Shown here: piece after piece, positions 1,178 through 18,393 of the stretch
How positions within the stretch are numbered: position 1 is the first letter of the stretch
Layout: each line of letters begins with the position of its first letter
Source of the DNA: an uncultured Acidobacteriota bacterium
GTDB lineage: Bacteria; Acidobacteriota; Thermoanaerobaculia; Gp7-AA8
Length of the DNA stretch: 64,000 nucleotides
Reading direction: 5' to 3'
Assembly (NCBI GenBank): GCA_963822445.1
Contig: CAWGHO010000002.1
Location: forward strand, 2,208,001-2,272,000
Position numbers and translations under genes: made by a program
The notes under the pieces: generated by a model
Seen by the model: only the letters and a program-made list of their open reading frames with translations
What the model was told of the DNA's origin: nothing
Databases searched by the model: none

Positions 1178-1376
1178 GCCTAACTACTGCCAGGAGCTGT
1201 CGGCGGGCTGGCTCCGTGGCCCGTCGGCCGAGCCGACTCGGCCGACTCCAAGTTGCGCGGCGTCACGGCCGTGGCAGATCGCTCCTGCCTACAAAGGCGT
1301 TGGTCGCGGCAACGGCCGCGCCGCTCTGCTGGTTGCGCCGGTGAACCCGCCGCAGCTCAGGCGATAGACGTTAGGC
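1178..1376 (+). repeat. attC-like site 1 (199 bp, subtype A)
   Basis: GCCTAAC-TACTG-CCAGGAGC ... GCTCAGG-CGATAGAC-GTTAGGC. Confidence 0.9.
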
Positions 1377-1623
1377 CGACGAATGACGATTGGCGTGACG
1401 GCGCGCTTTCCATGAGGCTCCGCGTACCGGGATGCTCGCCGCAAGCCAGATAAACTACCGCGTCAGTTGGAGCGTGTTAGGCCGGCAGACAACACGCGCA
1501 ATGGAATGCCGACTTCGCCCATGCGTCGTCGTACGTAAGCTTGGTCTGAGCACCCTGAACGGTGCAGGGTGCCAGACACGAGTGGTATAACAGGGACACG
1601 ACCGACGACAAAGGAGTTCTGAC

Positions 1624-1824
1624 ATGAGCACACGAGCAATGATGGTTTTTCGCGGTTGGCTAATGCTGTCACCACAAGAGCGAGCTGAGGTGCTCCAACG
1701 TATTCATGCCTATATGAATGCCTCCCAGCAGCAGCAGGCACAAATCGAACAGAGCCTCGGATTGCCGCCATCGCATTCACGCAATCCGGATGCATGTCCA
1801 TGTTGCGGGAGGCTCGGTATTTAG
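1624..1824 (+). CDS. Small protein with C-terminal CPCCG motif (cassette)
   Basis: AAGGAG RBS upstream; paralog at 2031. Confidence 0.75.
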   Translation: MSTRAMMVFRGWLMLSPQERAEVLQRIHAYMNASQQQQAQIEQSLGLPPSHSRNPDACPCCGRLGI

Positions 1825-2030
1825 TCGATATGCGCAGATCGCGTCACCCGTCCTCTGCGCGTTTGGACAAAGTGTTGAGCCGGCACGGCGCTTGCCATCC
1901 GCATCGTCAACACTAGCTCGATGCGGTTCTGCCGCGCCGACTCATGCTGGGATGTTCTCGAAGTGTAATGTTTGAGTGGCAGGGTTATGACTGTGACCCC
2001 CGCATCCACCCTTGAATGAGAGGAGGATTT

Positions 2031-2237
2031 GTGAATGGACGCACCGCACTCGTGACAATTGGTTATGTACGTCTGTCACGCGATGAGCAGCAGACCGTCT
2101 TAGAGGTTGCGGCTGAGTTTGCTGCGGTTGCGCCACACCAGCGCGAGCCCTTTATGGCATCGCTTCAAGTTACGCTGTCAAACGACACCTCAGGAACCGA
2201 TCGGTATTGCCCGTGCTGCGGCCATTTGCGTGGGTAA
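2031..2237 (+). CDS. Small protein with C-terminal CPCCG motif, paralog of 1624-1824
   Basis: AGGAGG RBS then GTG 2031; N-terminus aligns ungapped with upstream ORF. Confidence 0.75.
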   Translation: MNGRTALVTIGYVRLSRDEQQTVLEVAAEFAAVAPHQREPFMASLQVTLSNDTSGTDRYCPCCGHLRG

Positions 2238-2417
2238 GTTTCGTTATGTTCCCTATACCGTGGCGAGCGCCGGCCTTCTAAGTGACTGCTCGTATTTGTT
2301 GAAACAAGGATCGCATTTTCACCCAGCACCGGACAAAAAGCGTGGGAAATGGACAAAAATAGTCAAAATTAACCGTCAGTTAGTTGCTTCGTTGTAGCTC
2401 GGCGGAGCCGGGTGGCG

Positions 2418-2614
2418 GCCTAACTCCTGCCAGCAGCGGATGGCGGGCCGTTCGCCGCTCTCGGGCCTGAAGGCCCTTTTCTCTGCCGAGACGCACGGCG
2501 TCACACCGCTTGCAGATCGCGCCCGCCGGCTTGACTCTGGTTGCGGCAAGCGGCGCGCCGCTGCCGCCGCATGCACGCGGGGCCTCGCCACCGCTGAGGC
2601 GATCAACGTTAGGC
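2418..2614 (+). repeat. attC-like site 2 (197 bp, divergent)
   Basis: GCCTAAC...CCAGCAGCGG / CCGCTGAGG...GTTAGGC. Confidence 0.85.
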
Positions 2615-2868
2615 CGACGTTTCCACAGTTTCCGTGACGGCACGCTTTCCATGAGACTTCGCGTACCTGCTCGCTCAGGGCAAACGGTCATCGCCGTCGC
2701 TGGAGCGCGTAAGTCCGACCGCGCGCAACCTAAACTCGGCGACTTTCTACTCGTTGGCCATCAGCGGAAAATCCTTATCACGCCCGACATGGGCTCAGAA
2801 GTTAGCCAAAGCGCTCGCAGCATTCCAGAAGAAGCTATTCTGAATTTTCCGCCCATTCGCGTTGTCGC

Positions 2869-3519
2869 TTGGCGAACGCTATACTTCTCTCCAAGGACAG
2901 TACCGGTGAGCGACGATCGCGAACACGGCACGCGTATTCCCTCAAGCAGGCGATTGCTCGCACTCCTCGTCGGCACACGACCTATGGGGGTATAGACGAA
3001 ATGGCTGGTCAGGTCCGCAATCTCACCTCAGTCGTCGACGTTCTCAAACGTCACTGTGCACGAATACTGGAACCTGATGACGACACACTAACCTCCATGC
3101 AGAAAGAGGCTCGTCGTGTCGCACTAACCAAAGACATGAAGAAAATTGGCCTGTCGTTTAGCATCGACCACGACATCGATGCGATTACATTCATCTGGTC
3201 ACGGGCACTGAGCGTAATGGACACTGGAACAATTAACGACGTCCTCCCTGTGGGCGACTACCCCATTCACCTCTCCCTGAGCGAGCAAGTGACGGTGCGT
3301 TTCGAACCTAGAAGTCTCGGCGATTGGTCCGAACGGCATAGAGTTGGCAACCGCAAGTTCGCCGATCTCAAGAAGGGGGATTTGTACGAGTTTCACGGTG
3401 TGACCCGATACGGTCGCTGCTACGTCAAGCAAGGACTCGAAGGCAGTTTTGTTTTTGACGTCGAGGCGCGTGGTCTCGCCGCATTCTTCGGAGGTCTCCT
3501 AGCAGCTCCTGGCCAATAA
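2869..3519 (+). CDS. Hypothetical cassette protein (start uncertain)
   Basis: Longest ORF in cassette, lower GC than the host region, ends before attC3. Confidence 0.55.
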   Translation: MANAILLSKDSTGERRSRTRHAYSLKQAIARTPRRHTTYGGIDEMAGQVRNLTSVVDVLKRHCARILEPDDDTLTSMQKEARRVALTKDMKKIGLSFSIDHDIDAITFIWSRALSVMDTGTINDVLPVGDYPIHLSLSEQVTVRFEPRSLGDWSERHRVGNRKFADLKKGDLYEFHGVTRYGRCYVKQGLEGSFVFDVEARGLAAFFGGLLAAPGQ

Positions 3520-3643
3520 CTGGTTGCATTGAAAGCGTACCGTCGTGACGTCAGGTCGAGAGCTATCTTTCACGCGCAAGGTTCGTCCCGTCTGTACCGA
3601 CAAGACTGGTTCCTGGCCATCAACCAACCTGTTCCGGTCGGCG

Positions 3644-3840
3644 GCCTAACTACTGCCAGAAGCTGGCACGGCCCGGCTTCGGTCCGGCGGCCGAGCCGCC
3701 TACATCATCGCCAGTCGGACGGCGTCACGGCGGTTGCAGATCGGCAGGCGTTGCATGCAACTTCTCGCCGGCAACCACCGCGCCGCTCTGGCTTCGGCAC
3801 GTGGGCCCTGGCCGTGCAGCTTAGGCGATAGACGTTAGGT
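3644..3840 (+). repeat. attC-like site 3 (197 bp, subtype B); IS481 inserted in its R' core
   Basis: GCCTAAC...CCAGAAGC / GCTTAGG...GTTAGG. Confidence 0.9.
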
Positions 3841-4873
3841 GTGATGTGTCAGGACGTTGTTCCTTGAAGCGGGTTGTCCATCCGGGCGACTTTCGTCAAT
3901 CTGAAAGCTCTCAAACGAACAGGTTGACAGGAAGGAACCCAGATGGACGTGCACAAGAATGCGCGAAGCTGCCCGTTGAGTCGAGCACTGCTGGTCAAAC
4001 GAGTCTGCGAACAAGGATGGTCGGTGCGCGAGGCGTCGGAGGCCGCCGGTATGAGTGACCGGCGAGGGCGGGAGTGGATCCGTCGTGGTCTGAGGGTCGA
4101 GCCGCTTAACGATCGGAGCTCCAGACCGCACAGGGGCCGGGCCACGAGCGACATAAAACGACAGCGTGTTCTGAGTCTTCGCCGCGAATGGCGGACTGTG
4201 CGACAGATCGCGCAGGCAGTGGGCGTGAGTGCGTCGACAGCAGCGCGGATCTGCCGGTCAGCAGGGCTGGCTCGGTTGCGTCAGCTTGAGCCGGCAACAG
4301 TGCCAATTCGGTACGAGAAGGAGCGTCCGGGGGAACTGGTGCACATCGACATCAAGCGCCTGGGACGGTTCAATCGAGTGGGACACCGCATCACCAGGCG
4401 TCGATCGTTTGGCTCAAAGAAGCAGGGCTTCGAGTTCGTGTACGTCGCGACGGATGACTTCACCCGACTCTCCTACGTCGACGTCCTGGCAGATGAGCGT
4501 AGCGAGACTGCCAGCTCGTTTTTGACTCGGGCGGTGGCGTGGTTCGCTCAGCGGAATGTCATCGTCGAGCGGGTGATGACCGACAACGGATCGGCCTTCA
4601 TCTCACGCGACTTCCGGGATACCTGCAGCCGCCTGAACCTCACTCACGTCCGCATCCGGCCGTACACACCACGGACGAACGGTAAAGCGGAGCGGTTCAT
4701 CCAGACGCTGCTGCGCGAATGGGCCTATCGGTTCTCGTACCACAGCTCCGAGGAACGGCGCCGTTGGCTCGCACCGTACCTTCACTTCTACAACTACCAC
4801 CGAGCGCATACCGCGCTCTCTTACAATCCACCCATCAGTCGCCTGGATCGGAACAACGTCCTGAGACGCAACA
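3840..4873 (+). mobile_element. IS481-family element, copy 1
   Basis: IRs TGTGATGTGTCAGGACGTTGTTCC / GGAACAACGTCCTGAGACGCAACA; flanked by GTTAG(G) direct repeats. Confidence 0.93.
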
Positions 4874-4878
4874 GTTAG
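3943..4878 (+). CDS. IS481-family DDE transposase
   Basis: HKNAR N-terminus, PGELVHIDIK, VMTDNG, RPYTPRTNGKAERF. Confidence 0.95.
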   Translation: MDVHKNARSCPLSRALLVKRVCEQGWSVREASEAAGMSDRRGREWIRRGLRVEPLNDRSSRPHRGRATSDIKRQRVLSLRREWRTVRQIAQAVGVSASTAARICRSAGLARLRQLEPATVPIRYEKERPGELVHIDIKRLGRFNRVGHRITRRRSFGSKKQGFEFVYVATDDFTRLSYVDVLADERSETASSFLTRAVAWFAQRNVIVERVMTDNGSAFISRDFRDTCSRLNLTHVRIRPYTPRTNGKAERFIQTLLREWAYRFSYHSSEERRRWLAPYLHFYNYHRAHTALSYNPPISRLDRNNVLRRNS

Positions 4879-5048
4879 GCGGCCGGAAAGCCAATCACGC
4901 GGCGGCGCCGGCACGGGAACCAAAGCGACAGATCCTGGCTTCGTTTTCGAGGTCCGCGGGCTGATATGACTCGCACGTGGTTCTCCATCGGCCGACCCAT
5001 TCCACGATCATCGGGTCCATGCGCCAATATCAAATGTAGACTATCCAA

Positions 5049-5762
5049 ATGAGCGCGAATGACTCATTGGAGGATCGCATCAACGATATCGCTGTCTCTG
5101 TGACGAAGGGTGCGGTTGGTGCGATCCCGTTTGTGGGCGGTCTGATGGCTGAAATCATTGGCCAGGTAGTCCCTAACCAGCGACTTGACCGGATCGCTGA
5201 TTTTGCGCGCGCTCTTGCCGCCCGACTCCAGCACATCGAACAGAACGTCTTAGCGCAAGCACTCAACACGCCTGAGGGATTGGATACTCTGGAAGATGGC
5301 TTCGTCGCAGCATCCCGGACGCTAACAGCAGAACGCCGTGCACGGCTTGCAGGGGCGGTCGCGAAGACGTTGACAAGTGCTGATGTCGATCATGTTTACA
5401 AGAAACGACTACTGCAGCTTTCGAGCGGGCTAAGCGACGCGGAGCTGATCATGCTTCAGGCGGTAGAAATGTACGGTCGCAACGCAATTGACGTCGAGTT
5501 TGCGGCCCGCCATGAGCTGATACTTCGCGGCCCAGCCTATCGCGTTGATACCCGGAAAGAAGATCAAGCAGAGTACATACGGCACGAGAGTCTCGTGCAG
5601 AACCTGCTCTCCCACAAGCTCGTTTCGCCGTTCGCCAACGCAAATATGGTAGTCGGTATGTCCGTGCCGCCGCTATTCGCGGATGGAACGTGGCAAGCGA
5701 ACTATGAGATTACTCCCTTGGGTCGGGACGTGCTCGCTGTGATAACTGATGCGCCGCTGTAG
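5049..5762 (+). CDS. Hypothetical cassette protein, Abi-alpha/DUF4393-like
   Basis: GAVGAIPFVGG N-terminus, LSDAELIML, C-terminal ITPLGRDVL winged-helix-like ending; family call from motif recall only. Confidence 0.55.
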   Translation: MSANDSLEDRINDIAVSVTKGAVGAIPFVGGLMAEIIGQVVPNQRLDRIADFARALAARLQHIEQNVLAQALNTPEGLDTLEDGFVAASRTLTAERRARLAGAVAKTLTSADVDHVYKKRLLQLSSGLSDAELIMLQAVEMYGRNAIDVEFAARHELILRGPAYRVDTRKEDQAEYIRHESLVQNLLSHKLVSPFANANMVVGMSVPPLFADGTWQANYEITPLGRDVLAVITDAPL

Positions 5763-5770
5763 CCGCCGCC

Positions 5771-5971
5771 GCCTAACTACTGCCAGGAGCTGTCGGCGGG
5801 CCGTTTGCCGCGCCCGGCGCTGAAGCGCCTCGTTCGGCGTCGAATGGCCGGCGGCACGCCGGCCGACATGCTCTCGCGCCGCTGGTCGCGGCGCGACTTG
5901 CTGCAGCCGTCGCGCCGCGCGAACCGCTCGCACGCGGGGCCTCGCCGCAGCTCAGGCGATAGACGTTAGGC
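5771..5971 (+). repeat. attC-like site 4 (201 bp, subtype C)
   Basis: GCCTAAC...GTTAGGC with L boxes. Confidence 0.9.
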
Positions 5972-6022
5972 GGACGAACCGGTGGACTCCCGTCACCAAT
6001 GAGACGACGCTATACTCGATCC

Positions 6023-6766
6023 ATGAGACTCCTGCTCGGTCTTCTCGCCACCGTGATGCTTTCGGCATGTACTTCGACACCCGTGAACGGCTCAGCGCAG
6101 AGCGTCGCCACGCGCCGTGTGGCGATTGAGGACGCGATCTTCACGTACGTTCCGAGGTCCACCAATGATGCCTCCACTCTCCCGACCGGTGTAATCTACG
6201 CCGGTCTGGATGTGGACGGGTCGCAGCTATTCCTGTGTCGCGCAGCATGGGCTAATGGCGTTCATCCCGGAAAAACGTGGGACCGACCGCACGCGACGTG
6301 TAACATCGGGTATGGCGGGGGTGAAGTGGCGGTTCCGACGTTTGAAGTGCCAATCGTCCGCCGGAAATTCGCCGCCAACGAAGTATTCTGGGACTGCGTC
6401 GGGGAAGGAACCCCGGGCAGCCCTCATGTGTTTAATTGGTCTCGGTATGTCGTCGGGGGTCACGAAAACAACGGCACGCTGGGCTATTGCTTAGCCAGTT
6501 ACAGTGACAATGATGGCGGACTATGCCCGGAGGACGCGAAGTCTCGACTTGTGCCTGGCAAGTTGCTGCCTGGACCGGTCGGCTCTGACGCACCGCGTTG
6601 CTACTTTGGACTTTTTGGTCAGGAGCAGCAAAGAACAGTGTTCACGTATATGCTTTATAGCTGTTGTTTCGCTAGCCAAAACGCAGCTACATGCCAAGGA
6701 GACCGGCCCAATCGACCGTGTTCGGCTGAAGATGTGTCCGGTTATGCGCTAGCGTCAAAACCGTAG
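6023..6766 (+). CDS. Lipoprotein with DM9/DUF3421 repeats (cassette)
   Basis: Lipobox LSAC; LFLCRA...GVHPGK...CNIGYGGGE and a second LVPGK...CYFGLFGQE repeat. Confidence 0.75.
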   Translation: MRLLLGLLATVMLSACTSTPVNGSAQSVATRRVAIEDAIFTYVPRSTNDASTLPTGVIYAGLDVDGSQLFLCRAAWANGVHPGKTWDRPHATCNIGYGGGEVAVPTFEVPIVRRKFAANEVFWDCVGEGTPGSPHVFNWSRYVVGGHENNGTLGYCLASYSDNDGGLCPEDAKSRLVPGKLLPGPVGSDAPRCYFGLFGQEQQRTVFTYMLYSCCFASQNAATCQGDRPNRPCSAEDVSGYALASKP

Positions 6767-6791
6767 GTGATCAAGCCCGCGAGCATCCGCC

Positions 6792-6990
6792 GCCTAACTA
6801 CTGCCAGGAGCTGTCGGCGGGCTTGCTCCGTGGCCCGTCGGCCGAGCCGACTCGGCCGACTCAAACCTGCGCGGCGTCACGTCCGTTGCAGTTCGCTCCT
6901 GCCGTCAAAGGCGTTGGTCGCGGCAACGGCCGCGCCGCTCTGCTGGTTGCGCCGTTGAACCCGCCGCAGCTCAGGCGATAGACGTTGGGC
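6792..6990 (+). repeat. attC-like site 5 (199 bp, subtype A)
   Basis: Closely similar to site 1; ends GTTGGGC. Confidence 0.9.
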
Positions 6991-7275
6991 GGACCCGGCG
7001 CGAAACGTAGGCCGGACTTCTATTTACGCGTTGGCAGTCGCGCCGACAGAAGCGGCGTAGCCGCGCGCCAAGGCGTCCGCCGCCATTTTCGTCGTGGTAC
7101 CCGCCCGCCCACCGGCTGCTCGCACCAGCAGCGCGCGCGGGGCACGATCTGCGTAGGCCAGTGACCACAAAACTCGAGACGCACTGACGTAGCGGGCCTT
7201 CGGCCACGCGCGCTTCGCGTCGTGCACCATTTGCCGCGCGCGCTGCTCCCAGCGCGCAAAGCTGTGCGTGTGGCC
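6985..7275. other. ORF-less cassette, copy 1
   Basis: About 290 bp between attC sites; homologous to 14791-15089; no conserved long ORF. Confidence 0.75.
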
Positions 7276-7464
7276 GCCCAACAACTCACAGCAGCTGTCG
7301 CGGCCCGGCTTCGGCCCGGCGCTGAAGCGCCTGGGCCGAACAGTACCGTCGCGGCGGCACGCCGGCCGCAATTCGGTTCATTCGTTAATCGCCGGCAGCC
7401 GGCGCGCCGCGCTGCCGTAGCCACGCAGGCCCTGGCCGCGCAGCTGAGTGAGATGACGTTAGCC
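7276..7464 (+). repeat. attC-like site 6 (189 bp, subtype D)
   Basis: GCCCAAC-AACTC-ACAGCAGC ... GCTGAGT-GAGATGAC-GTTAGCC. Confidence 0.88.
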
Positions 7465-7569
7465 GGACCGAGATAGGGTGGGGGAACTCAGGAGAACTCC
7501 GGGCGGGAGGGAAAAGTGCGCACGCGGCCCTCCTACTCATGGGCAGATGAGCTGCCAAGGAGAGAATAT

Positions 7570-8406
7570 ATGCGCCAGGTGTATGCCGCGATCTTCATCA
7601 TTCTCATGACCGGTAGCGTGGTAGCTGCCGAGAAATCCTCGACCGAAAAACCGTCGACAATTTTCGTGCGCGAGTGCAAGGCACTCACGAAAACCTTGCC
7701 GGATCTTGCGCTGCCGTGCACGGATTTCGTGAAGGGCAAGTCGGACGAAACTATACGCGCCTATTTGGCAATGATTCAGAGCGCGCAACAGCAGTTGGTA
7801 GCGCAAGGCCCGGAACTCGCTCAGTCCATCATGAAGGGCTGTATGGCGAATACGGTGGCTGAGAAGCCCGACTTAGGCGGTCTGCTCTTTTGCCTGCGAA
7901 TTCGTCGGAACGGAACCGATCTTGAGAAGCTCTCCAAGGGAGAGGGTTCGTGGGGCGAGTATGCAAAACTGGCCAACGACGCATCGAAACCAGTGCCGTC
8001 GTATCCTGTAGAGGACACAGCGCAATCGGAGAAGCAGCGCGCCGCGGTTCGTCAGGCTGTCGTATATGCGTGTGTAAAAGAGGGAGATGGGTATGTCCGC
8101 GCACTCTGCGGGGCTGTAGCCGCTCATGAGGCATTTGCATCGCGGCCATTCGGAGACAATGGGGAATTGGCCAAAGCTTTCGACACCGTCTTGAAAGTTT
8201 ATGCGATCACCGAGGCGCCGAAGCAAGCGATTCAGGCGGAGGTCAAAGAGATACTTCAGCGCGCAGGCTTCAACGATCAGGTCGCCCAGGCGGTGGCGAA
8301 TCCACAGAAGGGAGTCGAGGAAGGCGCCAAGCATGTCGCGGGTGAGGCACAAAAGGCCGGCGAGGCGGTTGCGAAGGCAATCCAATGCATTTTCGGGTGT
8401 GGATAG
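7570..8406 (+). CDS. Secreted Cys-containing hypothetical protein (cassette)
   Basis: AAGGAG RBS; signal peptide MRQVYAAIFIILMTGSVVAA. Confidence 0.75.
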   Translation: MRQVYAAIFIILMTGSVVAAEKSSTEKPSTIFVRECKALTKTLPDLALPCTDFVKGKSDETIRAYLAMIQSAQQQLVAQGPELAQSIMKGCMANTVAEKPDLGGLLFCLRIRRNGTDLEKLSKGEGSWGEYAKLANDASKPVPSYPVEDTAQSEKQRAAVRQAVVYACVKEGDGYVRALCGAVAAHEAFASRPFGDNGELAKAFDTVLKVYAITEAPKQAIQAEVKEILQRAGFNDQVAQAVANPQKGVEEGAKHVAGEAQKAGEAVAKAIQCIFGCG

Positions 8407-8426
8407 GTGTGCTGAAGCACGGGGCC

Positions 8427-8623
8427 GGCTAACTACTGCCAGAAGCTGGCACGGCCCGGCTTCGGTCCGGCGGCCGAGCCGCCTGCATCATCGCCAGCGG
8501 CACGGCGTCACGGCGGTTGCAAATCGGCAGGCGTTGCATGCAACTTCTCGCCGGCAACCGCCGCGCCGCACGGGCTTCGGCACGTGGGCCCTGGCCGTGC
8601 AGCTTAGGCGATAGACGTTAGCC
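8427..8623 (+). repeat. attC-like site 7 (197 bp, subtype B)
   Basis: GGCTAAC...GTTAGCC. Confidence 0.9.
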
Positions 8624-8664
8624 GGACGACGGGGAGACAGATAGGAACGTTATACTGATGACGC

Positions 8665-9693
8665 TTGAAGCTTTTCTATAGTTATTCATCGTCCGATGAG
8701 TCGTTCAGAAGCGAGTTCGAAGACCACCTTTCGTTACTCAAACGCGACGGCCTTCTGGAAACGTGGTCATTTCGAAATATCAGTGCTGGTTCAGATTGGG
8801 AGCGCGAGATCGACGACCGCCTTGCGATTGCCGACATCGCGCTCCTTTTGGTCAGTGCCAGTTTCATCGCGTCGAGATACTGCTGGGAGGTTGAACTGCG
8901 TCACGCGATCAAACGAGTGGACCGTGGCGAGATGCTCCTCATACCGGTTGTCATTCGCCCATGTGATTGGCAAACGGCACCGTTCGCCCGCTTCCAGGCT
9001 TTACCGGACGGCGCGAAGCCTGTCACATCGTGGCGTCCGCGTGACCGAGCGTGGGCGAATGTGGCAGCCGGGCTTCGAAACTTGATCGAAGCGAAGAGAA
9101 ATCCAACTGCTGCAACGACGGCTATTCACAATTCAGAGATGGGCAAACGTCAGATTGCGCAGGCGTTTCAACAGGCCCGTGAAGCCACTGATCACGCAGA
9201 TAGGCGTCATAAGCGCCTCGTGCGACAGGTAAACGAGCGTCGCATGAACCTGTTGACTGAATTGCCGCATCTACATAACGCAGTGGCGCAGCTCGTTGCG
9301 CATATCGCGCCAGAATTCGCGCCGACGCTGTCGATCGAGGGCGAACGGCTGACGATTGTGAGAGATCGAATACGTATGGTGGTTGAGCCTTCCGACAGCG
9401 GCCATAACTTAACGGTGACATTGGCGCGGTATGATAGCTCCAACGGTATTACGTTTCTAGGAATTGAAGTGATGGTGCATACAGTGATGTTACTTCGGAA
9501 CGTGACCAGAAAGTGGCGCGTGGAGACCGAGCACGTTTGGCGCCGGGAACTGACCGATAATGTTGAGACTTGGATATGGAGTCACGCGACGAGAGAACTG
9601 AAGGCGAACACCGAAGAGCTAGCGAGTCTGCTGCTTAGACGGTTTGCAGATCGCTGCGCAGGTCTCACGAACCCGGATAATGCCGCCGGCTAA
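8665..9693 (+). CDS. TIR-domain protein with unknown C-terminal region (cassette)
   Basis: LFYSYS, LLLVSASFIASRYCWEVEL, IPVVIRPCDW; stop TAA lies within the R'' box. Confidence 0.88.
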   Translation: MKLFYSYSSSDESFRSEFEDHLSLLKRDGLLETWSFRNISAGSDWEREIDDRLAIADIALLLVSASFIASRYCWEVELRHAIKRVDRGEMLLIPVVIRPCDWQTAPFARFQALPDGAKPVTSWRPRDRAWANVAAGLRNLIEAKRNPTAATTAIHNSEMGKRQIAQAFQQAREATDHADRRHKRLVRQVNERRMNLLTELPHLHNAVAQLVAHIAPEFAPTLSIEGERLTIVRDRIRMVVEPSDSGHNLTVTLARYDSSNGITFLGIEVMVHTVMLLRNVTRKWRVETEHVWRRELTDNVETWIWSHATRELKANTEELASLLLRRFADRCAGLTNPDNAAG

Positions 9694-9884
9694 CTACTGC
9701 CAGAAGCTGGCACGGCCCGGCTTCGGTCCGCCGGCCGAGCCGGCTGCATCATCGCCAGCGTGACGGCGTCACGGCGGTTGCGGTTCGGCAGGCGTTGCAT
9801 GCAACTTCTGGCCGGCAACCGCCGTGCCGCTCGGACTTCGGCACGTGGGCCCTGGCCGTGCAGCTTAGGCGATAGACGTTAGGC
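9688..9884 (+). repeat. attC-like site 8 (197 bp, subtype B)
   Basis: GGCTAAC...GTTAGGC. Confidence 0.9.
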
Positions 9885-10155
9885 CGTCCGTGGCCACAAC
9901 GCTTCGCGTTCTTGTGAGCCCTTCGTCGCATTCACAGTTCTCATACCCTCCAGCCCCCCCTCGCAGTGTCGAAGGTGACGGGCGGCTGCCACCGATAAAA
10001 TGTTCCCCATCGAGTGGATCCGATCCCATGTCGATTTCATCTGCCACGGACATTTTTACGACCCTCTCCGTTGCATGCCGCTGCGGCACGTTCCCCCCAC
10101 GCAGCTGCCGACACCGCGATATCGCGGGCCGCGACCAGCAAAACGCGCCTCCCGC

Positions 10156-10227
10156 ATGCCCAAGGGTGCCGTCGGTCCCTTCAAACTCGCCCACCAACCG
10201 CGGTAGACCGACGGCACCCTTGGGCAT
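10156..10227. repeat. Perfect 22-bp inverted repeat with 28-nt loop
   Basis: ATGCCCAAGGGTGCCGTCGGTC / GACCGACGGCACCCTTGGGCAT. Confidence 0.9.
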
Positions 10228-10475
10228 CACACCCTCCCGGCGCACGCTCGTCGCGGCCCTGACTTCACCCGCCGCCCACCCTCGCGCGCCGAACTCGCGA
10301 ATGCGTGCCGTGACACTGCGGTTGCATATCGCTCCCCGCTGACGGGGTTGTTAGTCGCGGCCAACCGCCGCGCCACGGGCGGTGACCGTGAATTCGGCGC
10401 GCTCATGCCCGACGACTGCTGCTACCACCCGGACGCAGGGCTTTCGTTGAGCTCCGCAGGACTAGAATGTTCGCT

Positions 10476-11283
10476 ATGGCTTCGGAAGCGTCAAAAGAGC
10501 CGAACGAGGGTCGGTGGCACGAAGGTCGGATCACGAATGGCGTCCGCATCGTGCATCTTCACAGCTGGTCGTATTTCGATGATTACATGACTGAAGAGAT
10601 GATCACGCGAAGGCAGTTCATCTGGCGTGGACAAGCGTCAGCCGATTGGCCGCTCGAATCTACTATTGATCGCCTGTTGCGGCGCCGTAAGAGGCTCAAA
10701 AGTAAGCGGGCTCGCGAGGAGCATCTGCGTCGCTTCAAATACGCTAGCCGGGGCAGACGAGGGGCGAATCCGCCGCAACTCACAGAAGATGAATGGTGGG
10801 CGCTCGGTCAACATTTCGGGCTAGCGACGCCTCTTTTGGATTGGAGCGCTTCGCCATACGTTGCAGCGTATTTTGCCTTTGTTTCCGAAGAAAACGATAA
10901 TGCAGAGCAACGCGCCGTCTACGGTATATCGCGAACTTCCGTTCAGAACGCATGCGACGAAGCTCGAGAAGACTGGAGTGGCGAAGGCTCGCCATCGTTA
11001 CTTGAAATCATCGAGCCACTTTCGGACGAAAATCCGCGTCTGGTTAGCCAAGGCGGCCTTTACTCGTGTGCCGGACGGCATGGACGTGGAATCGTGGGTC
11101 AGAAGCCATTTCAAAGGTGACTCTAAGTTTCCCCGGTTACTCAAGCTCACGATGCCGAACGACGACCGCGAGTTAGCGCTACGAAACCTGAATCGCATGA
11201 ATATCAATCACCTCTCTCTATTTCCGGACTTATACGGCGCATCCAAATTCGTTAACCTCGATCTACTGATTGAGAAGTATTGA
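10476..11283 (+). pseudogene. FRG-domain protein, frameshift near 11060 (possibly a sequencing error)
   Basis: WRGQ, QHFGLATPLLDWS, NPRLVSQGG, then a different frame continues FTR...INHLSLFPDLYG. Confidence 0.85.
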
Positions 11284-11291
11284 GGTCGGCG

Positions 11292-11491
11292 GCCTAACTA
11301 CTGCCAGGAGCTGTCAGCGGGCCGTTTGCCGCGCCCGGCGCTGAAGCGCCTCGTTCAGCGCTGAATGGCCGGCGGCACGCCGGCCGACATGCTCTCGCGC
11401 CGCTGATCGCGGCGCGAATCACTGCAGCCGCCGCGCCGCGCACCCGCTCGCACGCGGGGCCTCGCCGCAGCTCAGGCGACAAACGTTAGCC
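11292..11491 (+). repeat. attC-like site 9 (200 bp, subtype C)
   Basis: GCCTAAC...GTTAGCC. Confidence 0.9.
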
Positions 11492-11715
11492 GGACGAAAC
11501 GAAACATGCTCTGAATGTCCGCGACGAAGGAACGATGAGGTAGCGGAGGCGCGAGCAGTGACAGTCGGAGCGATGCCGAAGGATGCAGCGACCGTGCATG
11601 GTCCAAGACCAGTGATGCCGAGAGGTGGTAGGGGTGACGGAGTAATCGTGAGGGCAACGTACTCGCTGTATCGGTCCGGACAAGGATCGTCTCCCGCCGT
11701 TTGAGACTGTTAGGG

Positions 11716-12150
11716 CTACTTCGGTCTGGACCTAAGGATGGTACCAAGCGCTTGCAGGTGTCCTGCGCCGCGTTCGATCTCCGCCAACCAATGTTCACGA
11801 TATGGTGCCAGAGTCTTATCGGAGTTGAGATGATGCCAATCTAAATTCTTAGCGTAGATACCCAACTGCTTCAGATCGCGCAGCATCGCGTAGCGAGCTT
11901 GACCTAAGCTGTCTCGCACCTTTGACGTGCAGTCGTCAAAATCGAAAACCAGATGGTTGTACTTCGTTCCCTCGACTCGGGGAATCTTACCATCACGCAA
12001 CTTCGTTGCGATCGCCTCGAGCGCACCGCCCAACGCTGTGAAGTACTCAGCCGCGCGCTCATCTGCGTCAATTTTTCGTTCCCGAATAAGCTCGATTAGC
12101 TTTGCGGTTGTTTCCGCGAGGTCGGTGAGTAGCTTCCATTCAACAATCAT
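11716..12150 (-). CDS. Hypothetical helical protein, antisense to array (cassette)
   Basis: AAGGTGGG before ATG 12150; MIVEWKLLTDLAET... Confidence 0.65.
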   Translation of the reverse strand: MIVEWKLLTDLAETTAKLIELIRERKIDADERAAEYFTALGGALEAIATKLRDGKIPRVEGTKYNHLVFDFDDCTSKVRDSLGQARYAMLRDLKQLGIYAKNLDWHHLNSDKTLAPYREHWLAEIERGAGHLQALGTILRSRPK

Positions 12151-12429
12151 TGCCCACCTTATCGTTAGATGCAGTTGACCACTTTGTTGCTGTAATCCAA
12201 GGACGAGCGTTTGATAGCAAGGTGACCGTCGCCGAGCGTAGATCCGCAATGCTCCCCTTCGGGTGCAGTAAGCCGAAGCGCGTCGCTCTACGTACAACGT
12301 CGTGCGTCGAGAGGTACTGGGCCCGCCAGCTTCCAGAAATCAACTCCGAGTGGTCTCACAAGTAGGAGTGTCGCCTCCGTCGAATTCCCTACCCACAAGC
12401 AAAGCTGGAGATCTTGATCGCCGCGCCGG

Positions 12430-13365
12430 CTAACTGTTGCGTCTCAGGACGTTGTTCCGATCCAGGCGACTGATGGGTGGATTGTAAGAGAGCGCGGTAT
12501 GCGCTCGGTGGTAGTTGTAGAAGTGAAGGTACGGTGCGAGCCAACGGCGCCGTTCCTCGGAGCTGTGGTACGAGAACCGATAGGCCCATTCGCGCAGCAG
12601 CGTCTGGATGAACCGCTCCGCTTTACCGTTCGTCCGTGGTGTGTACGGCCGGATGCGGACGTGAGTGAGGTTCAGGCGGCTGCAGGTATCCCGGAAGTCG
12701 CGTGAGATGAAGGCCGATCCGTTGTCGGTCATCACCCGCTCGACGATGACATTCCGCTGAGCGAACCACGCCACCGCCCGAGTCAAAAACGAGCTGGCAG
12801 TCTCGCTACGCTCATCTGCCAGGACGTCGACGTAGGAGAGTCGGGTGAAGTCATCCGTCGCGACGTACACGAACTCGAAGCCCTGCTTCTTTGAGCCAAA
12901 CGATCGACGCCTGGTGATGCGGTGTCCCACTCGATTGAACCGTCCCAGGCGCTTGATGTCGATGTGCACCAGTTCCCCCGGACGCTCCTTCTCGTACCGA
13001 ATTGGCACTGTTGCCGGCTCAAGCTGACGCAACCGAGCCAGCCCTGCTGACCGGCAGATCCGCGCTGCTGTCGACGCACTCACGCCCACTGCCTGCGCGA
13101 TCTGTCGCACAGTCCGCCATTCGCGGCGAAGACTCAGAACACGCTGTCGTTTTATGTCGCTCGTGGCCCGGCCCCTGTGCGGTCTGGAGCTCCGATCGTT
13201 AAGCGGCTCGACCCTCAGACCACGACGGATCCACTCCCGCCCTCGCCGGTCACTCATACCGGCGGCCTCCGACGCCTCGCGCACCGACCATCCTTGTTCG
13301 CAGACTCGCTTGACCAGCAGTGCTCGACTCAACGGGCAGCTTCGCGCATTCTTGTGCACGTCCAT
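12430..13365 (-). CDS. IS481-family DDE transposase
   Basis: Protein identical to 3943-4878. Confidence 0.95.
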   Translation of the reverse strand: MDVHKNARSCPLSRALLVKRVCEQGWSVREASEAAGMSDRRGREWIRRGLRVEPLNDRSSRPHRGRATSDIKRQRVLSLRREWRTVRQIAQAVGVSASTAARICRSAGLARLRQLEPATVPIRYEKERPGELVHIDIKRLGRFNRVGHRITRRRSFGSKKQGFEFVYVATDDFTRLSYVDVLADERSETASSFLTRAVAWFAQRNVIVERVMTDNGSAFISRDFRDTCSRLNLTHVRIRPYTPRTNGKAERFIQTLLREWAYRFSYHSSEERRRWLAPYLHFYNYHRAHTALSYNPPISRLDRNNVLRRNS

Positions 13366-13468
13366 CTGGGTTCCTTCCTGTCAACCTGTTCGTTTGAGAG
13401 CTTTCAGATTGACGAAAGTCGCCCGGATGGACAACCCGCTTCAAGGAACAACGTCCTGACACATCACA
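12435..13468 (-). mobile_element. IS481-family element, copy 2, inserted in R'' of attC10
   Basis: Same IRs and same length (1034 bp) as copy 1; CTAAC on both flanks. Confidence 0.93.
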
Positions 13469-13664
13469 CCTAACTACTGCCAGGAGCTGTCGCGGCCCGG
13501 CTTCGGTCCGCCGGCCGAGCCGGCTGCTTTTTCGCCAGCGTGACGGCGTCACGGCGGTTGCAGTTCGGCAGGCGTTGCATGCAACTTCTCGCCGGCAACC
13601 GCCGCGCCGCTTCGGCTTCGGCACGTGGGCCCTGGCCGCGCAGCTCAGGCGATAGACGTTGGGC
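13469..13664 (+). repeat. attC-like site 10 (subtype B; original R'' GGCTAAC at 12428-12434 separated by the IS)
   Basis: CCTAACTACTGCCAGGAGC...GTTGGGC. Confidence 0.88.
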
Positions 13665-13972
13665 GGACGAGGGCGACATCGACGTGCGTGCTACGACCAG
13701 CCGGGTCCTCGACATCGAAGGGGGCGAAGCTGAATCACAGTGGAAAATCGACGTGCTACCCCGTGGAACGCTCTCAAACGCCTCTGCCAAATCTACTCGC
13801 GGTAGTTCCCGGCACTTGTTGCGTTTGCGTCGCGGCCTATCGCTACCGTCGCCGTGCGCTTCGATTAGGCGAAGCCGAGATGTCTTTTCGGCGTTTGCGC
13901 GCGTCCAGTGGCTAGGAGATGATTGCGCGCGGTGGATCGGTCGCTCGACTAGTCGCGAGGTAAGATTGAGTT

Positions 13973-14590
13973 ATGAAGCAATACATTCTGAAATGGGGTG
14001 GCCGTTTCGCGTCATCCATCGTCGTAATGCTCGCCACGATTCCCTCAGTGTTTGGCACCTTTCAATCGCAGACAGCTGGTCGTGCGTGGATGTTCGCAAT
14101 TGCGGCTGTCGCTTTGATCGGATTGCTGGTCGATGTTGCATTTCAGGAGCGCGCGGAGGCGCAGTTGAACAGAATCGAGCGTTCATCCGACGAAACTCTC
14201 GAGAGCAACCGCAGGCTGATCCGCATGCTAACGGTGAAGGACCCGCAGACACTCCGAGGGCGCGCGGCGTTACTGTCATCACGTATTCTCATCTGGATTT
14301 CGGAACTTGAAGCCACTGTGTGGTCAGCGAGACCGGTCGCGAAGCCAAACACGGTGGATGCCATCATCGCAGAAGGTGTTACCCGCTGGCACCTGGTTCA
14401 GGAGACGAACGAGATCTTTTCGCGTCTGTTCGCGAAGGACGTTCTAAAGCTCCGCGAGGATCTCCAGCAAGCCGGAGTATCGAATGCGTTCATTGACTCG
14501 TTCTCGCCTGAAAGCAACACGCCCGATGCGATCAGGCTGCTTGCGGTGCACCTCGGCCGCGCTGCCGATCGGCTCCCAGACGAAGTTTAA
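13973..14590 (+). CDS. Hypothetical protein with 2 N-terminal TM helices (cassette)
   Basis: Two hydrophobic segments then a coiled/helical region; stop just before attC11. Confidence 0.75.
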   Translation: MKQYILKWGGRFASSIVVMLATIPSVFGTFQSQTAGRAWMFAIAAVALIGLLVDVAFQERAEAQLNRIERSSDETLESNRRLIRMLTVKDPQTLRGRAALLSSRILIWISELEATVWSARPVAKPNTVDAIIAEGVTRWHLVQETNEIFSRLFAKDVLKLREDLQQAGVSNAFIDSFSPESNTPDAIRLLAVHLGRAADRLPDEV

Positions 14591-14600
14591 GAGAGGCGCC

Positions 14601-14796
14601 GCCCAACTACTGCCAGAAGCTGGCACGGCCCGGCTTCGGTCCGCCGGCCGAGCCGGCTGCATCATCGCCAGCGTGTCGGCGTCACGGCGGTTGCAGATCG
14701 CCAGTCGTTGCGGGCAACTCCTCGCCGGCAACCGCCGTGCCGCTCGGCTTCGGCACGTGGGCCCTGGCCGTGCAGCTTAGGCGATAGACGTTGGGC
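14601..14796 (+). repeat. attC-like site 11 (196 bp, subtype B)
   Basis: GCCCAAC...GTTGGGC. Confidence 0.9.
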
Positions 14797-15089
14797 GGAC
14801 CCGGCACGAAGAGGTAGGCCCGACTTCCATTTACGCGTTGGCAATCGCACCGACTGAAGCGGCGGAGCCGCGCGCCAAGGCGTCCGCCACAATTGCTCGT
14901 CGTGGTACCCGCCCGTCCGCCGGCTTGTCGCACCTGCAGCACGCGCGAATCATGATTCTCGTAGGCAGCCGGCCACAATCTGCCCAAGAGCCGCTATCCA
15001 CGCCGGCCTGACGGCCGAGCACGCATTCCGCGTCGGCCATCATTCGGCGCGCGCGCTGCTTCCAAGCGCGGAAAGTCGTGCGTGCGGCC
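14791..15089. other. ORF-less cassette, copy 2
   Basis: Homologous to 6985-7275. Confidence 0.75.
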
Positions 15090-15280
15090 GCCCAACAACT
15101 CACAGCAGCTGTCGCGGCCCGGCTTCGTCCCGGCGCTGAAGCGCCTGGGCCGAACAGTATCGGCGCGGCGTCACGCCGGCTGCAGTTCGGTTCGTTCGTT
15201 AATCGCCGGCAGCCGGCGTGCCGCGCCCTGCCGTAGCCGCGTGGGCCCTGGCCGCGCAGCTGAGTGAGATGACGTTAGCC
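15090..15280 (+). repeat. attC-like site 12 (191 bp, subtype D)
   Basis: Closely similar to site 6. Confidence 0.88.
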
Positions 15281-15464
15281 GGACCGAAGCGATGCGTGGT
15301 TGAAACGACCAATAGACCGGCGTATTCGTGCGATGCTGCAGTGCACGCTGGCCTGCTCCGGTTCGACCGCAGTGTTATCTTCGTTACCACCGACCGTGAG
15401 CAAACATCCAGTCGCGAACGAGCAGGAGATTTCTTTGCCGACATGGCACCTCAGGAAGTGGCAT

Positions 15465-16127
15465 GTGCCGTCGTGGTGGATCACCGGTTTGGTGCTTCTC
15501 CTGTGTGTCGCGCAGCCGTTACAAGCGTGCTCTTGCGGTGACCGCCCAAAGGCCGCGAAGGTCTTGTCATCTCACGCTGTATTTGACGGGACGGTCGTGT
15601 CCTCTCGACCCTTCATCGATCGATCAGACGACTACTGGTACGTGCTCGAGGAATGGACGTTTCAGGTGCATAGGAGTTGGACACGAGGAGTCCAAGGCGA
15701 TGTCGCTATTCGTGCCTATCCGCATAACTGTGGCGTCTGGTTTGAGAATGGTGAGCGCGCAATTGTTGTCGCTGTCAATCGCGAAAGGCGCACACTCGGT
15801 GCGTTCAAGTGTGCCTATCCTCGCGAGAATGTTGACGTGTTAAACGCGGACCGTCTGTTGGGGCCGGCTTCGTTCCGCACCGACGGCCCGGTACGGAAAA
15901 GGAGAATCGCGCGTATCGTTAATGTGGCTCGGCGCTTGGTTCTTCACCTCATCGCGGATATCCACAACTGGATCGTTCGCTCCGGTCTTCGTGGCCGCGG
16001 CTACGGCACTGTCATTGCTTGGGCGCTGGCGACATGCGTGCTCTTCGCTATCTTGGTCGTCGTTCTATCGTTCCGGCGACTGCGAGGTCGCGACAAGAAT
16101 GAGCCGCCTTCCATGGCAGCCGGCTAA
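15465..16127 (+). CDS. Exported, membrane-anchored protein with ACSC (TIMP/NTR-like) motif (cassette)
   Basis: Signal peptide then ACSC, VFDGTVV, CGVWFENGE, C-terminal TM; stop in R''; GTG start inferred. Confidence 0.65.
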   Translation: MPSWWITGLVLLLCVAQPLQACSCGDRPKAAKVLSSHAVFDGTVVSSRPFIDRSDDYWYVLEEWTFQVHRSWTRGVQGDVAIRAYPHNCGVWFENGERAIVVAVNRERRTLGAFKCAYPRENVDVLNADRLLGPASFRTDGPVRKRRIARIVNVARRLVLHLIADIHNWIVRSGLRGRGYGTVIAWALATCVLFAILVVVLSFRRLRGRDKNEPPSMAAG

Positions 16128-16320
16128 CTACTGCCAGGAGCTGCCGGCGGGCCGTTTGCCGCGCCCGGCGCTGAAGCGCCTCGTTCGGCGTTGATGGGCC
16201 GGCGGCACGCCGGCCGACATGCTCTCGCGCCGCTGATCGCGGCGCGAACACGGCGGCCATCGAGCCGCGCACCCGCTCGCACGTGGGGCCTCGCCGCAGC
16301 TCAGGCGATAGACGTTAGCC
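16122..16320 (+). repeat. attC-like site 13 (199 bp, subtype C)
   Basis: GGCTAAC...GTTAGCC. Confidence 0.9.
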
Positions 16321-16487
16321 GGACGAACCACATTTTGGCGTCATGGCACAGCTCCGCTACTTGCACGCTTATCGCGCCCGAAGTCGGCGTTGCCGTCCGC
16401 CAGGCGGTGCGTAGGCGCCACTTGGTCAGGATGCCATCGCGGGTTGAAGTCGACGGTAGCCGGGCGCAAGGGCTGAGGAGTAGACTG

Positions 16488-17394: not shown

Positions 17395-17481
17395 GTACTG
17401 CGGGCGGGAGTCGCTAGGAAGACCCCCGAAACGGCTACAAGCATGCGTTACTATCTGCTAGGATCGCCGCGAGGACACGTC

Positions 17482-18391: not shown

Positions 18392-18393
18392 AC

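What the first reader, a model, noticed from the sequence alone, without database searches (positions are those of the whole stretch)
3834..13474. IS481 that targets attC core motifs and borrows its stop codon from them
Seen: both 1034-bp copies (one synonymous difference noticed) sit at GTTAG. Copy 1 is in R' of attC3 and copy 2 is inverted in R'' of attC10. The transposase frame runs through the right IR and stops at the TAG of the target. Target duplication regenerates a core on both sides, so the hairpins remain nearly intact. Flanks fit a 5-bp GTTAG duplication plus one extra G, or 6 bp with a mismatch in copy 2. Established attC-targeting elements are the IS1111-attC group and group IIC-attC introns; I know of no IS481 example. 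Inference: a cassette-hitchhiking IS.
Basis: partly seen in the sequence, partly recalled or inferred. Interest (0 to 1): 0.7.

Follow-up and report, generated by a model that had tools for sequence, protein, structure and literature searches.

The report
IS481-type transposon landing on integron attC cores
A small jumping gene of the well-known IS481 family has switched its landing word from CTAG to GTTAG, the conserved end of integron recombination sites in this soil-bacterium lineage, so many of its copies sit in those sites without breaking them.

Summary
Two 1,034-bp copies lie at window 3840-4873 (+) and 12435-13468 (-). They differ by one synonymous base. Each sits in a GTTAG core of a ~195-nt attC site of a ~105-kb chromosomal integron. 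The genome holds four copies, all in attC cores: three at R'' and one at R'.

Taking the stop codon from the target duplication is not special. It is the published norm for the IS481 family, and I saw it in most of the distant relatives I read.

What is new is the target. A single, well-supported transposase clade, found only in this Thermoanaerobaculia family and in metagenome contigs (habitat not recorded), uses G-TTAG-N instead of N-CTAG-N.

attC association is strong but not exclusive:
- 4 of 4 copies here are at attC.
- 9 of 29 readable left junctions in relatives abut an attC.
- 0 of 12 junctions of the sister CTAG clade do.
- 13 of 14 attC insertions are at the R''-type core.

Other copies sit at unrelated GTTAG sites, including tandem GTTAG repeats. 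GTTAG is very rare in these genomes, and attC cores hold 14-36% of the sites in this one. A short-word preference therefore explains most of the pattern. Dedicated attC recognition is not shown.

The parts
1178..18592 (+). Distal part of a chromosomal integron cassette array: 15 attC sites of about 195 nt, all on the + strand. The whole array is G000:C2:2120565-2226592 with 88 attC hits. The integrase gene intI lies at C2:2118113-2119048.
   Evidence: nhmmer profile built from 73 attC sites of this genome. The R''/R' cores pair, and 13 of 37 consensus pairs show compensatory changes. intI scores 456 bits on TIGR02249 against a cut-off of 265.
3644..3839 (+). attC number 3 of the window. Its R' core GTTAGG (3834-3839) is the left target duplication of IS copy 1.
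3840..4873 (+). IS copy 1, 1,034 bp, IS481 family. Left inverted repeat 3840-3863 and right inverted repeat 4850-4873 (20 of 24 bases match).
3943..4878 (+). Transposase ORF, 311 aa (LZ_Tnp_IS481 + HTH + rve/rve_3 domains). The stop TAG at 4876-4878 lies in the target duplication.
4874..4879 (+). Right target duplication of copy 1, GTTAGG.
12429..12434 (-). Right target duplication of copy 2. It reads GTTAGC on the - strand (GCTAAC on the + strand) and differs from the left duplication at the sixth base.
12435..13468 (-). IS copy 2, 1,034 bp, one synonymous difference from copy 1. The transposase ORF is 12430-13365 (-), antisense to the cassettes.
13469..13474 (-). Left target duplication of copy 2. 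It reads GTTAGG on the - strand (CCTAAC on the + strand) and is the R'' core of attC number 10.
13469..13663 (+). attC number 10 of the window, full length by profile although the IS abuts it.
   Evidence: HMM positions 2-198, 152 bits

Best explanation
This is an active IS481-family insertion sequence. It has a DDE transposase, 24-bp TGT...ACA inverted repeats and a 6-bp duplication.

It belongs to one subclade whose target word changed from the family's usual N-CTAG-N to G-TTAG-N, often with A in front. As in the rest of the family, the transposase gene has no stop of its own and uses the TAG of the duplicated target.

In the host lineage, attC sites end in (S)CTAAC ... GTTAG(S). The word GTTAG is otherwise strongly avoided in these GC-rich genomes. 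A transposase that simply seeks (A)GTTAG therefore lands in attC cores very often.

It lands almost always in the R'' core, because only that core reads AGTTAG on the complementary strand. This puts the transposase antisense to the cassettes.

Because the 6-bp duplication covers the core and the IS ends supply T/A, the attC next to the IS keeps its consensus and its hairpin. Insertions in the non-essential array are probably kept, while others are lost.

Shown: the anatomy, copy map, clade, target word, and the share of insertions at attC.

Inferred: that word preference plus survival, and not recognition of the attC fold, produces the pattern; and that the interrupted sites still recombine.
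For: Family membership: NF033577 263 bits (cut-off 224) and Pfam LZ_Tnp_IS481/rve.

Copy map: four copies with at most one difference between them and four different outer flanks.

Target word:
- Junction tables of relatives: 23 left junctions in family genomes, 6 in metagenome contigs, and 37 distinct right junctions of this clade read GTTAG-like words. The sister elements read NCTAGN.
- The transposases of the GTTAG elements form one clade of 17 rows (SH-like support 100) nested among CTAG-type elements of the same host family.

Stop in the target duplication is published for ISLxc2/ISLxx4 and ISRe46.

Insertions outside attC:
- 20 of 29 readable left junctions do not abut an attC. L033 and L135 lie in tandem GTTAG-like repeats.
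- L012, a right-end junction outside that tally, also lies in tandem GTTAG-like repeats.

Rarity of the word:
- This genome has only 1,126 GTTAG, 570 GTTAGS and 217 AGTTAG sites in 6.0 Mb. attC cores hold 13.8%, 26% and 36% of them.
- AGTTAG occurs at 78 R'' cores against 1 R' core.
- Relatives have 15-225 AGTTAG sites, against about 1,060-2,090 for the reversed control word.

With AGTTAG as the target word, 4 of 4 copies at attC has p about 0.02, so no extra specificity is needed in this genome.
Against: In relatives the attC share looks higher than the word alone predicts.
- 7 of about 11 left junctions with A at position -1 in family genomes abut an attC.
- My rough estimate of the attC share of AGTTAG sites is 3-26%. 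It comes from counts for five genomes that I chose after seeing their attC insertions (R1 hits 67, 37, 18, 11 and 3; AGTTAG counts).

A further 18 of 37 right flanks carry the C-S-S-S context. That context marks 56 of 79 R'' cores here but only 53 of 971 other GTTAG sites. This suggests either a longer recognised sequence or more attC insertions than my models detect.

13 of 14 attC insertions are at one core type. Published attC-targeting elements show the same geometry.

Selection, a longer word and structure recognition cannot be separated by sequence alone.
Confidence: 0.6

Rival explanations
1. Dedicated attC targeting. The clade's transposase recognises more than the word. It may read a longer attC-specific sequence (core plus conserved outer flank) or the folded or cruciform site. 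The CTAG-to-GTTAG switch would then be an adaptation to life in cassette arrays, letting the IS travel inside cassettes moved by the integrase.
For: - 4 of 4 copies here are at attC.
- In relatives, 9 of 29 left junctions abut an attC, plus one insertion in reverse orientation (L019). The sister CTAG clade shows 0 of 12.
- 13 of 14 attC insertions are at the R''-type core. All but L019 are antisense to the cassettes. This is the same geometry as reported for IS1111-attC elements and group IIC-attC introns (PMC3001079, discussion passage).
- G024 has only 3 attC hits and 15 AGTTAG sites, yet carries one insertion in an attC.
- The R''-outer context is present at 18 of 37 right flanks.
- The clade is confined to a host family in which 92 of 123 genomes have attC-model hits.
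Against: - 20 of 29 left junctions are not at a recognisable attC, and some are plainly unrelated (tandem GTTAG repeats).
- No consensus beyond (A)GTTAG is seen at the non-attC sites.
- The R'' bias is explained by the A at position -1: 78 R'' cores against 1 R' core read AGTTAG.
- In this genome the enrichment vanishes once the word AGTTAG is assumed (p about 0.02).
- No duplicated IS-bearing cassette was seen.
Confidence: 0.3
2. The copies were spread by the integron and not by transposition. One insertion into a cassette would have been copied by integrase-mediated cassette duplication or by recombination between attC sites, so the four copies would be one event.
For: The left flanks of three copies are similar, because they belong to the same attC family. 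Inverted IS copies in arrays can recombine (PMC11023631, passages read). Metagenome contig L196 has outer-type flanks on both sides of the IS.
Against: - The four outer flanks differ from the first base after the duplication.
- One copy is at R' in the opposite orientation.
- One copy lies on another contig in a small attC cluster.
- Three of the four copies have matching 6-bp duplications.
Confidence: 0.03
3. Pure coincidence plus safe haven. The IS has no preference relevant to attC, and copies survive only in the dispensable array.
For: The array is about 105 kb of largely unexpressed DNA. Insertions there are likely to be neutral.
Against: Every junction of the clade is at a GTTAG-like word, not at random array positions. 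None of the four copies here lies inside a cassette ORF or spacer. The CTAG-type IS481 relatives in the same genomes are not found at attC (0 of 12).
Confidence: 0.05

Closest known systems
IS481 family, CTAG-targeting members (IS481/IS1002 of Bordetella, recalled; ISLxc2/ISLxx4, PMC2516522; ISRe46, PMC6794481)
   Same: About 1.0-kb element with TGT...ACA inverted repeats, a single DDE transposase with an N-terminal HTH/leucine-zipper, a 6-bp duplication, and a transposase stop codon supplied by the TAG of the duplicated target.
   Different: The target is G-TTAG-N instead of N-CTAG-N. It is no longer palindromic, so insertion has a preferred orientation. In the rarer reverse orientation the frame ends at TAA of CCTAAC (L019). 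The right inverted repeat ends GCAACA instead of GCGACA. The clade is confined to one Thermoanaerobaculia family and metagenome contigs whose habitat is not recorded.
IS1111-attC group (ISPa21, ISPst6, ISKpn4; Tetu and Holmes 2008 and Post and Hall 2009, known to me only through citing passages in PMC3001079 and PMC11187229)
   Same: An insertion sequence found in attC sites, near the 5' (R'') end and antisense to the cassettes. The members form a monophyletic subgroup within a larger IS family.
   Different: IS1111-attC elements use a different transposase type (DEDD, with a seekRNA guide, PMC11187229 passages). The element here uses a DDE enzyme and makes a 6-bp duplication. It is also found at many non-attC sites, so its specificity is a short word and not the attC site as such.
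Group IIC-attC introns (PMC3001079)
   Same: They insert at attC, into the bottom strand, opposite to cassette transcription. They are a monophyletic attC-associated subset of a wider class.
   Different: They are retroelements with a ribozyme and a reverse transcriptase. There is no similarity in sequence or mechanism to the element here.
IS copies inside sedentary chromosomal integrons (IS3 copies in the Vibrio cholerae array, PMC11023631)
   Same: Inverted IS copies inside a large array can invert the segment between them by homologous recombination. Here two inverted copies bracket 7.5 kb holding six attC sites.
   Different: The Vibrio IS3 copies sit in cassette coding sequence, not in attC cores. 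No inversion has happened here: all attC sites between the copies are on the + strand.

Membership tests
IS481 family | DDE transposase matching the family profile, with an N-terminal HTH/leucine-zipper and an rve core | tested here: met
   NF033577 263.3 bits against a cut-off of 224. PF13011, PF00665 and PF13683 are all above their cut-offs.
IS481 family | Element of about 1 kb with terminal inverted repeats that begin TGT (definition recalled from ISfinder, not from a call) | tested here: met
   1,034 bp. The 24-bp repeats are TGTGATG... and ...GCAACA, with 20 of 24 bases matching.
IS481 family | 6-bp duplication of NCTAGN, as in IS481-type members (PMC6794481, PMC2516522) | tested here: not met
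   The duplication is 6 bp but reads GTTAGN at all four copies and at most relatives' junctions. This is a changed target within the family, not a reason for exclusion. The sister elements in the tree read NCTAGN.
IS481 family | Transposase stop codon lies in the duplicated target | tested here: met
   TAG at 4876-4878 is outside the right repeat, which ends at 4873. The same holds in relatives.
attC-targeting mobile elements (in the sense of the IS1111-attC group) | Insertions found essentially only in attC sites, at one fixed position | tested here: not met
   4 of 4 copies here are at attC, but only 9 of 29 readable left junctions in relatives abut an attC. Where the insertion is at attC, the position is fixed (the core).
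attC-targeting mobile elements (in the sense of the IS1111-attC group) | Insertion near the 5' end of the attC, antisense to the cassettes (PMC3001079 passage) | tested here: met
   13 of 14 attC insertions are at the R''-type core. 12 of those 13 have the transposase antisense. The equivalence of the relatives' core to R'' is inferred from arm similarity and from ORF polarity in one locus.
attC-targeting mobile elements (in the sense of the IS1111-attC group) | DEDD transposase with an RNA guide | tested here: not met
   The transposase has an rve-type DDE domain.
Integron attC sites (identity of the target) | Inverse cores RYYYAAC ... GTTRRRY, an imperfect palindrome with conserved pairing, arrayed next to an integron integrase gene | tested here: met
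   The cores are SCTAAC / GTTAGS. They pair in the consensus fold, and 13 of 37 pairs have compensatory changes. 88 sites lie in one orientation downstream of intI. The length of about 195 nt is long for an attC.
Integron attC sites (identity of the target) | Recombination by the integrase, including at sites carrying the IS | not testable with these tools
   Only sequence integrity could be checked. attC 10 still matches the profile over positions 2-198.

The most novel reading that the evidence does not exclude
A lineage of IS481 elements retuned its target from CTAG to the integron attC core (A)GTTAG as an adaptation to living in cassette arrays. That would make it a third, independent class of attC-associated mobile element, after IS1111-attC and group IIC-attC introns. 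It converges on the same geometry (R'' end, antisense, attC left intact), so the integrase could carry it along inside cassettes.
Probability: 0.3. Interest if true: 0.7.

Novelty: new variant of a known kind. Interest (0 to 1): 0.5.

Why it matters
Only two kinds of mobile element are known to home in on integron attC sites, and both use unusual, guide-based recognition. This is an ordinary DDE transposon. A one-base change of its target word (CTAG to TTAG, with G in front) puts a third to all of its copies into attC cores without destroying them.

If the association is adaptive, it shows a cheap route by which a transposon can colonise integrons and possibly ride on cassettes. If it is only a word coincidence, it is still a clean natural example of a target-specificity switch inside one IS family. 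The sister clades live in the same hosts, which makes the residues responsible experimentally tractable.

It also documents very large integrons with about 195-nt attC sites in Thermoanaerobaculia. Inverted IS copies there could drive array inversions.

Tried and rejected
- Strict two-motif definition of attC. It undercounted variant attC sites, so I replaced it with an nhmmer profile.
- Generic core/arm scan of relatives' loci. It gave no output because the threshold was too strict, and I dropped it.
- Hairpin test with controls. 7 of 300 control GTTAG sites pass, and 2 of those 7 are real attC variants. 32 of 40 known attC cores pass. Only 4 of 23 relatives' junctions pass (L007, L013, L137, L149), so it is less sensitive than the covariance model. 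I kept it only as a cross-check.
- Full maximum-likelihood tree of 145 transposases. It did not finish. I used a FastTree tree of 69 rows instead: all GTTAG/CTAAC-labelled rows, all rows at 52% identity or more, and every third of the rest. Four rows labelled GTTAG/CTAAC outside the clade are artefacts of my crude label, where the word occurs near the stop but is not the duplication.
- Tetu and Holmes 2008 (PMC2447020) is not held. I know it only from citing passages.
- Sequencing runs. Only assembled contigs of soil metagenomes were available, with small shares. No contig bridged an empty site or an IS circle junction, so nothing can be said about activity or expression.
- 5-bp versus 6-bp duplication. 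8 of 11 full copies of the clade have matching sixth bases, but the sixth base is mostly G or C, so chance matching is high. Mismatches at the outer positions also occur in the CTAG clade. This is unresolved.
- Cassette duplication as the source of the copies. Rejected on the flanks.
- ISfinder could not be consulted.


Full report
**Observation**

The window holds one long inverted repeat, 3834-4883 / 12425-13474. Reading both strands and mapping in the genome defines a 1,034-bp element at 3840-4873 (+) and 12435-13468 (-). It has 24-bp terminal inverted repeats (TGTGATG... / ...GCAACA, 20 of 24 matching) and one ORF of 311 aa (3943-4878).

The ORF's TAG lies three bases beyond the right repeat, inside the duplicated target. 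The two copies differ only at IS position 160, AAA/AAG, which is synonymous.

Copy 1 is flanked by GTTAGG/GTTAGG. Copy 2 is flanked by GTTAGG/GTTAGC.

**What the element is**

The protein matches the NCBIfam IS481 equivalog at 263 bits against a cut-off of 224. It also matches Pfam LZ_Tnp_IS481, rve and rve_3.

The genome is three contigs totalling 6.0 Mb. The window is C2:2208001-2272000. It holds four full copies:
- the two in the window;
- one 3.6 kb upstream of the window (C2:2203359-2204392, -);
- one on another contig (C1:1227004-1228037, -).

There is also a distant CTAG-type relative on C3.

The four copies differ at one position at most. Their outer flanks are unrelated, so they are separate, recent transpositions.

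**What the target is**

An integron integrase gene (TIGR02249, 456 bits, cut-off 265) lies at C2:2118113-2119048.

A profile built from 73 repeats of this genome finds 113 sites, 100 of them full length. Of these, 88 lie in one array, C2:2120565-2226592, with a median spacing of 1,116 bp. All but one are on the + strand.

The 15 sites in the window start with (S)CTAAC and end with GTTAG(S). In their consensus fold the two cores pair, and 13 of 37 pairs show compensatory changes. These are attC sites, unusually long at about 195 nt.

- Copy 1 abuts the R' end of the window's third attC.
- Copy 2 abuts the R'' end of the tenth.
- The upstream copy and the C1 copy also abut R'' ends.

In each case the attC-proximal duplication plus the terminal T/A of the IS keeps the 7-bp consensus (GTTAGG+T; A+CCTAAC). 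attC 10 still matches the profile over positions 2-198.

**The stop codon**

Using the TAG of the duplicated target as the transposase stop is described for ISLxc2/ISLxx4 (PMC2516522, passages) and ISRe46 (PMC6794481, passages).

Of 37 relatives' loci from public genomes that I examined, 31 showed the frame ending in the flanking word. In 27 of those the word read CTAG, and two close relatives read GTTAG. The rest lacked a readable end or a clear inverted-repeat match.

This part of the finding is a family trait.

**The target word is what is new**

A search of 123 other genomes of the same family found relatives in 55. Scans of public genome and metagenome contigs found close relatives (65-79% amino-acid identity) only in Thermoanaerobaculia assemblies and in metagenome contigs, for which the tool gives no habitat.

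Junction tables show that elements with the right repeat ending GCAACA are flanked by GTTAG-like words:
- 23 distinct left junctions in family genomes;
- 6 in metagenome contigs;
- 37 distinct right junctions.

A few have one-base variants (GCTAG, GTTAC). Five junctions are in the reverse orientation (CTAAC next to the IS: L011, L019, L139, L151=L152, and the left side of L196). In that orientation the frame ends at TAA.

Elements whose right repeat ends GCGACA are flanked by NCTAGN.

In a FastTree tree of 69 transposases, the GTTAG elements form one clade of 17 rows with support 100. The clade is nested among CTAG-type elements from the same host family. One of the 17, L013, comes from an unpublished genome.

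**How tightly is the clade tied to attC?**

Most relatives carry a shorter attC type of about 100 nt. I built a covariance model from six such sites; 9 of 23 pairs are compensatory. It hits 92 of 123 family genomes.

With this model and the profile of the long type, an attC abuts the IS end at these junctions:
- L007, L010, L013 (unpublished genome), L014, L021 (weak, 25 bits), L044 and L137. That is 7 of 23 left junctions in family genomes.
- L192 and L198. That is 2 of 6 in metagenome contigs.
- L019, in reverse orientation.

L148 is ambiguous (E = 0.84).

The remaining 20 of 29 are not at a recognisable attC. L033 and L135 lie in tandem GTTAG-like repeats. L012, a right-end junction outside this tally, also lies in tandem GTTAG-like repeats. 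L008 is 711 nt from the nearest attC.

For the sister CTAG clade, 0 of 12 left junctions abut an attC.

Of the 14 attC insertions, 13 are at the R''-type core. The equivalence of the relatives' core to R'' rests on arm similarity and on ORF polarity in one locus.

**Is this more than a short word?**

GTTAG is strongly avoided in these genomes. One search gives these counts for this genome:

| Word | Sites in genome | In attC cores | Share |
|---|---|---|---|
| GTTAG | 1,126 | 155 | 13.8% |
| GTTAGS | 570 | 149 | 26% |
| AGTTAG | 217 | 79 (78 R'', 1 R') | 36% |

Four of four copies at attC then has p = 3.6e-4, 4.7e-3 or 0.018, depending on the assumed word. The values are higher if only sites outside my crude coding mask are counted.

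A at position -1 is present at about 18 of 28 left junctions, including some non-attC ones. That alone explains the R'' bias.

So in this genome a 6-7-bp word preference is sufficient.

In relatives the picture is less clear.
- AGTTAG counts are 15 to 225 per genome, against about 1,060-2,090 for the reversed control word.
- attC counts are 67, 54, 39, 37 and 18 in five genomes.
- My rough estimate of the attC share of the word is therefore 3-26%.
- Yet 7 of about 11 junctions with A at -1 abut an attC.
- 18 of 37 right flanks carry the C-S-S-S context. That context marks 56 of 79 R'' cores here but only 53 of 971 other GTTAG sites.

These estimates are rough. The genomes were chosen after the fact, the models miss divergent sites, and kin are not independent. 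They cannot separate a longer recognised sequence, recognition of structure, and better survival of insertions in a dispensable array.

**Mechanism proposed**

Shown:
- an intact DDE element with recent transpositions;
- a clade-wide target G-TTAG-N with preferred orientation;
- the stop codon from the duplication;
- attC left intact in sequence.

Inferred:
- The transposase seeks the word.
- attC cores are the largest neutral reservoir of that word, so copies accumulate there, mostly at R'' and antisense.

An IS at R'' lies inside the cassette boundaries. In principle it could move with the cassette. An IS at R' would join the 5' end of the next cassette. I found no IS-bearing cassette in two places, so hitchhiking is untested.

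The two inverted copies in the window bracket 7.5 kb with six attC sites, all still on the + strand. Such pairs can invert array segments (PMC11023631, passages). Metagenome contig L196, with outer-type flanks on both sides of the IS, looks like such a product.

**Comparison and novelty**

The element is a member of the IS481 family with a changed target. Its geometry resembles that of IS1111-attC elements and group IIC-attC introns: 5' end of the attC, antisense (PMC3001079 passage). It is not attC-exclusive and uses a different enzyme (PMC11187229 passages).

Six full-text searches found no paper linking IS481 to attC. Papers outside the held library and ISfinder were not seen.

My counts agree on the sub-site. 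They add the non-attC insertions and the word-frequency background, which weaken 'targeting' to 'word coincidence, possibly more'.

**Verdict**

This is a real, recently active IS481-family element of a new GTTAG-targeting subclade that is strongly but not exclusively associated with attC cores. The stop-codon feature is ordinary. Interest is moderate.

Noticed in passing
G000:C1:1228097-1229420 (outside the window; locus L004 2594-3917): The attC that carries the C1 copy of the IS at its R'' core is also split in its middle by a second, single-copy, apparently degenerate IS. Its DDE_Tnp_1 domain scores 42.6 bits. It has inverted repeats CATTCGCATTAA... and an 11-bp duplication CGGCCGAGCCG.
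   Followed up: partly
G000:C2:2118113-2119048 and the array C2:2120565-2226592: The integron integrase gene lies on the same strand as the cassettes. The attC sites are about 195 nt, near the upper limit usually allowed for attC. The unpaired bases next to the cores lie mainly on the R' arm (GAC before GTTAG).
   Followed up: partly
G000:C2:2205449-2205645, about 2.4 kb upstream of the window start: This is the only attC of the main array on the - strand. It is followed by the largest attC-free gap of the array (3.7 kb, reaching window 1-1177). It lies between the upstream IS copy and copy 1 and may be a local rearrangement.
   Followed up: no
window 7277-7463 and 15091-15279: A second attC subtype (CCCAACAACTCACAGCAGCTG ... 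GAGATGACGTTAGC) scores only 82 bits on the profile. It recurs many times in the array directly after a standard attC, giving cassettes of only about 480 bp.
   Followed up: no
G000:C3:1601233-1602272 (loci L005/L006): A CTAG-type IS481 relative is present in the same genome. Its ends are 71-73% identical to this IS and its duplication is CCTAGG. It is a natural partner for specificity-swap experiments.
   Followed up: partly
locus L196 (metagenome contig), IS at 319-1352: A full copy is flanked by GGCTAAC on the left and GTTAGGCC on the right, that is, outer-type flanks on both sides and no direct duplication. This is what recombination between two inverted copies would leave.
   Followed up: no
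loci L052, L156, L169, L034 and others (relatives): Many genomes hold isolated 28-110-nt right-end fragments of the IS (up to 96% identical), still followed by GTTAG. In L034 a right-end fragment, GTTAGC and a left-end fragment lie directly together. These may be remnants or miniature derivatives.
   Followed up: no
loci L024, L032, L141 (CTAG-clade relatives): Three of 12 CTAG-type left junctions lie at the foot of strong 52-153-nt hairpins that have CTAG at both ends. These may be miniature transposons whose own duplications offer the target word.
   Followed up: no
loci L035, L050, L157 (genomes G047, G062, G078): Truncated copies in three genomes share the same right flank (GTTAGN CGGCG.GAATTCAAGAACTAAGT...). 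This suggests an old insertion in a conserved or itself mobile sequence.
   Followed up: no
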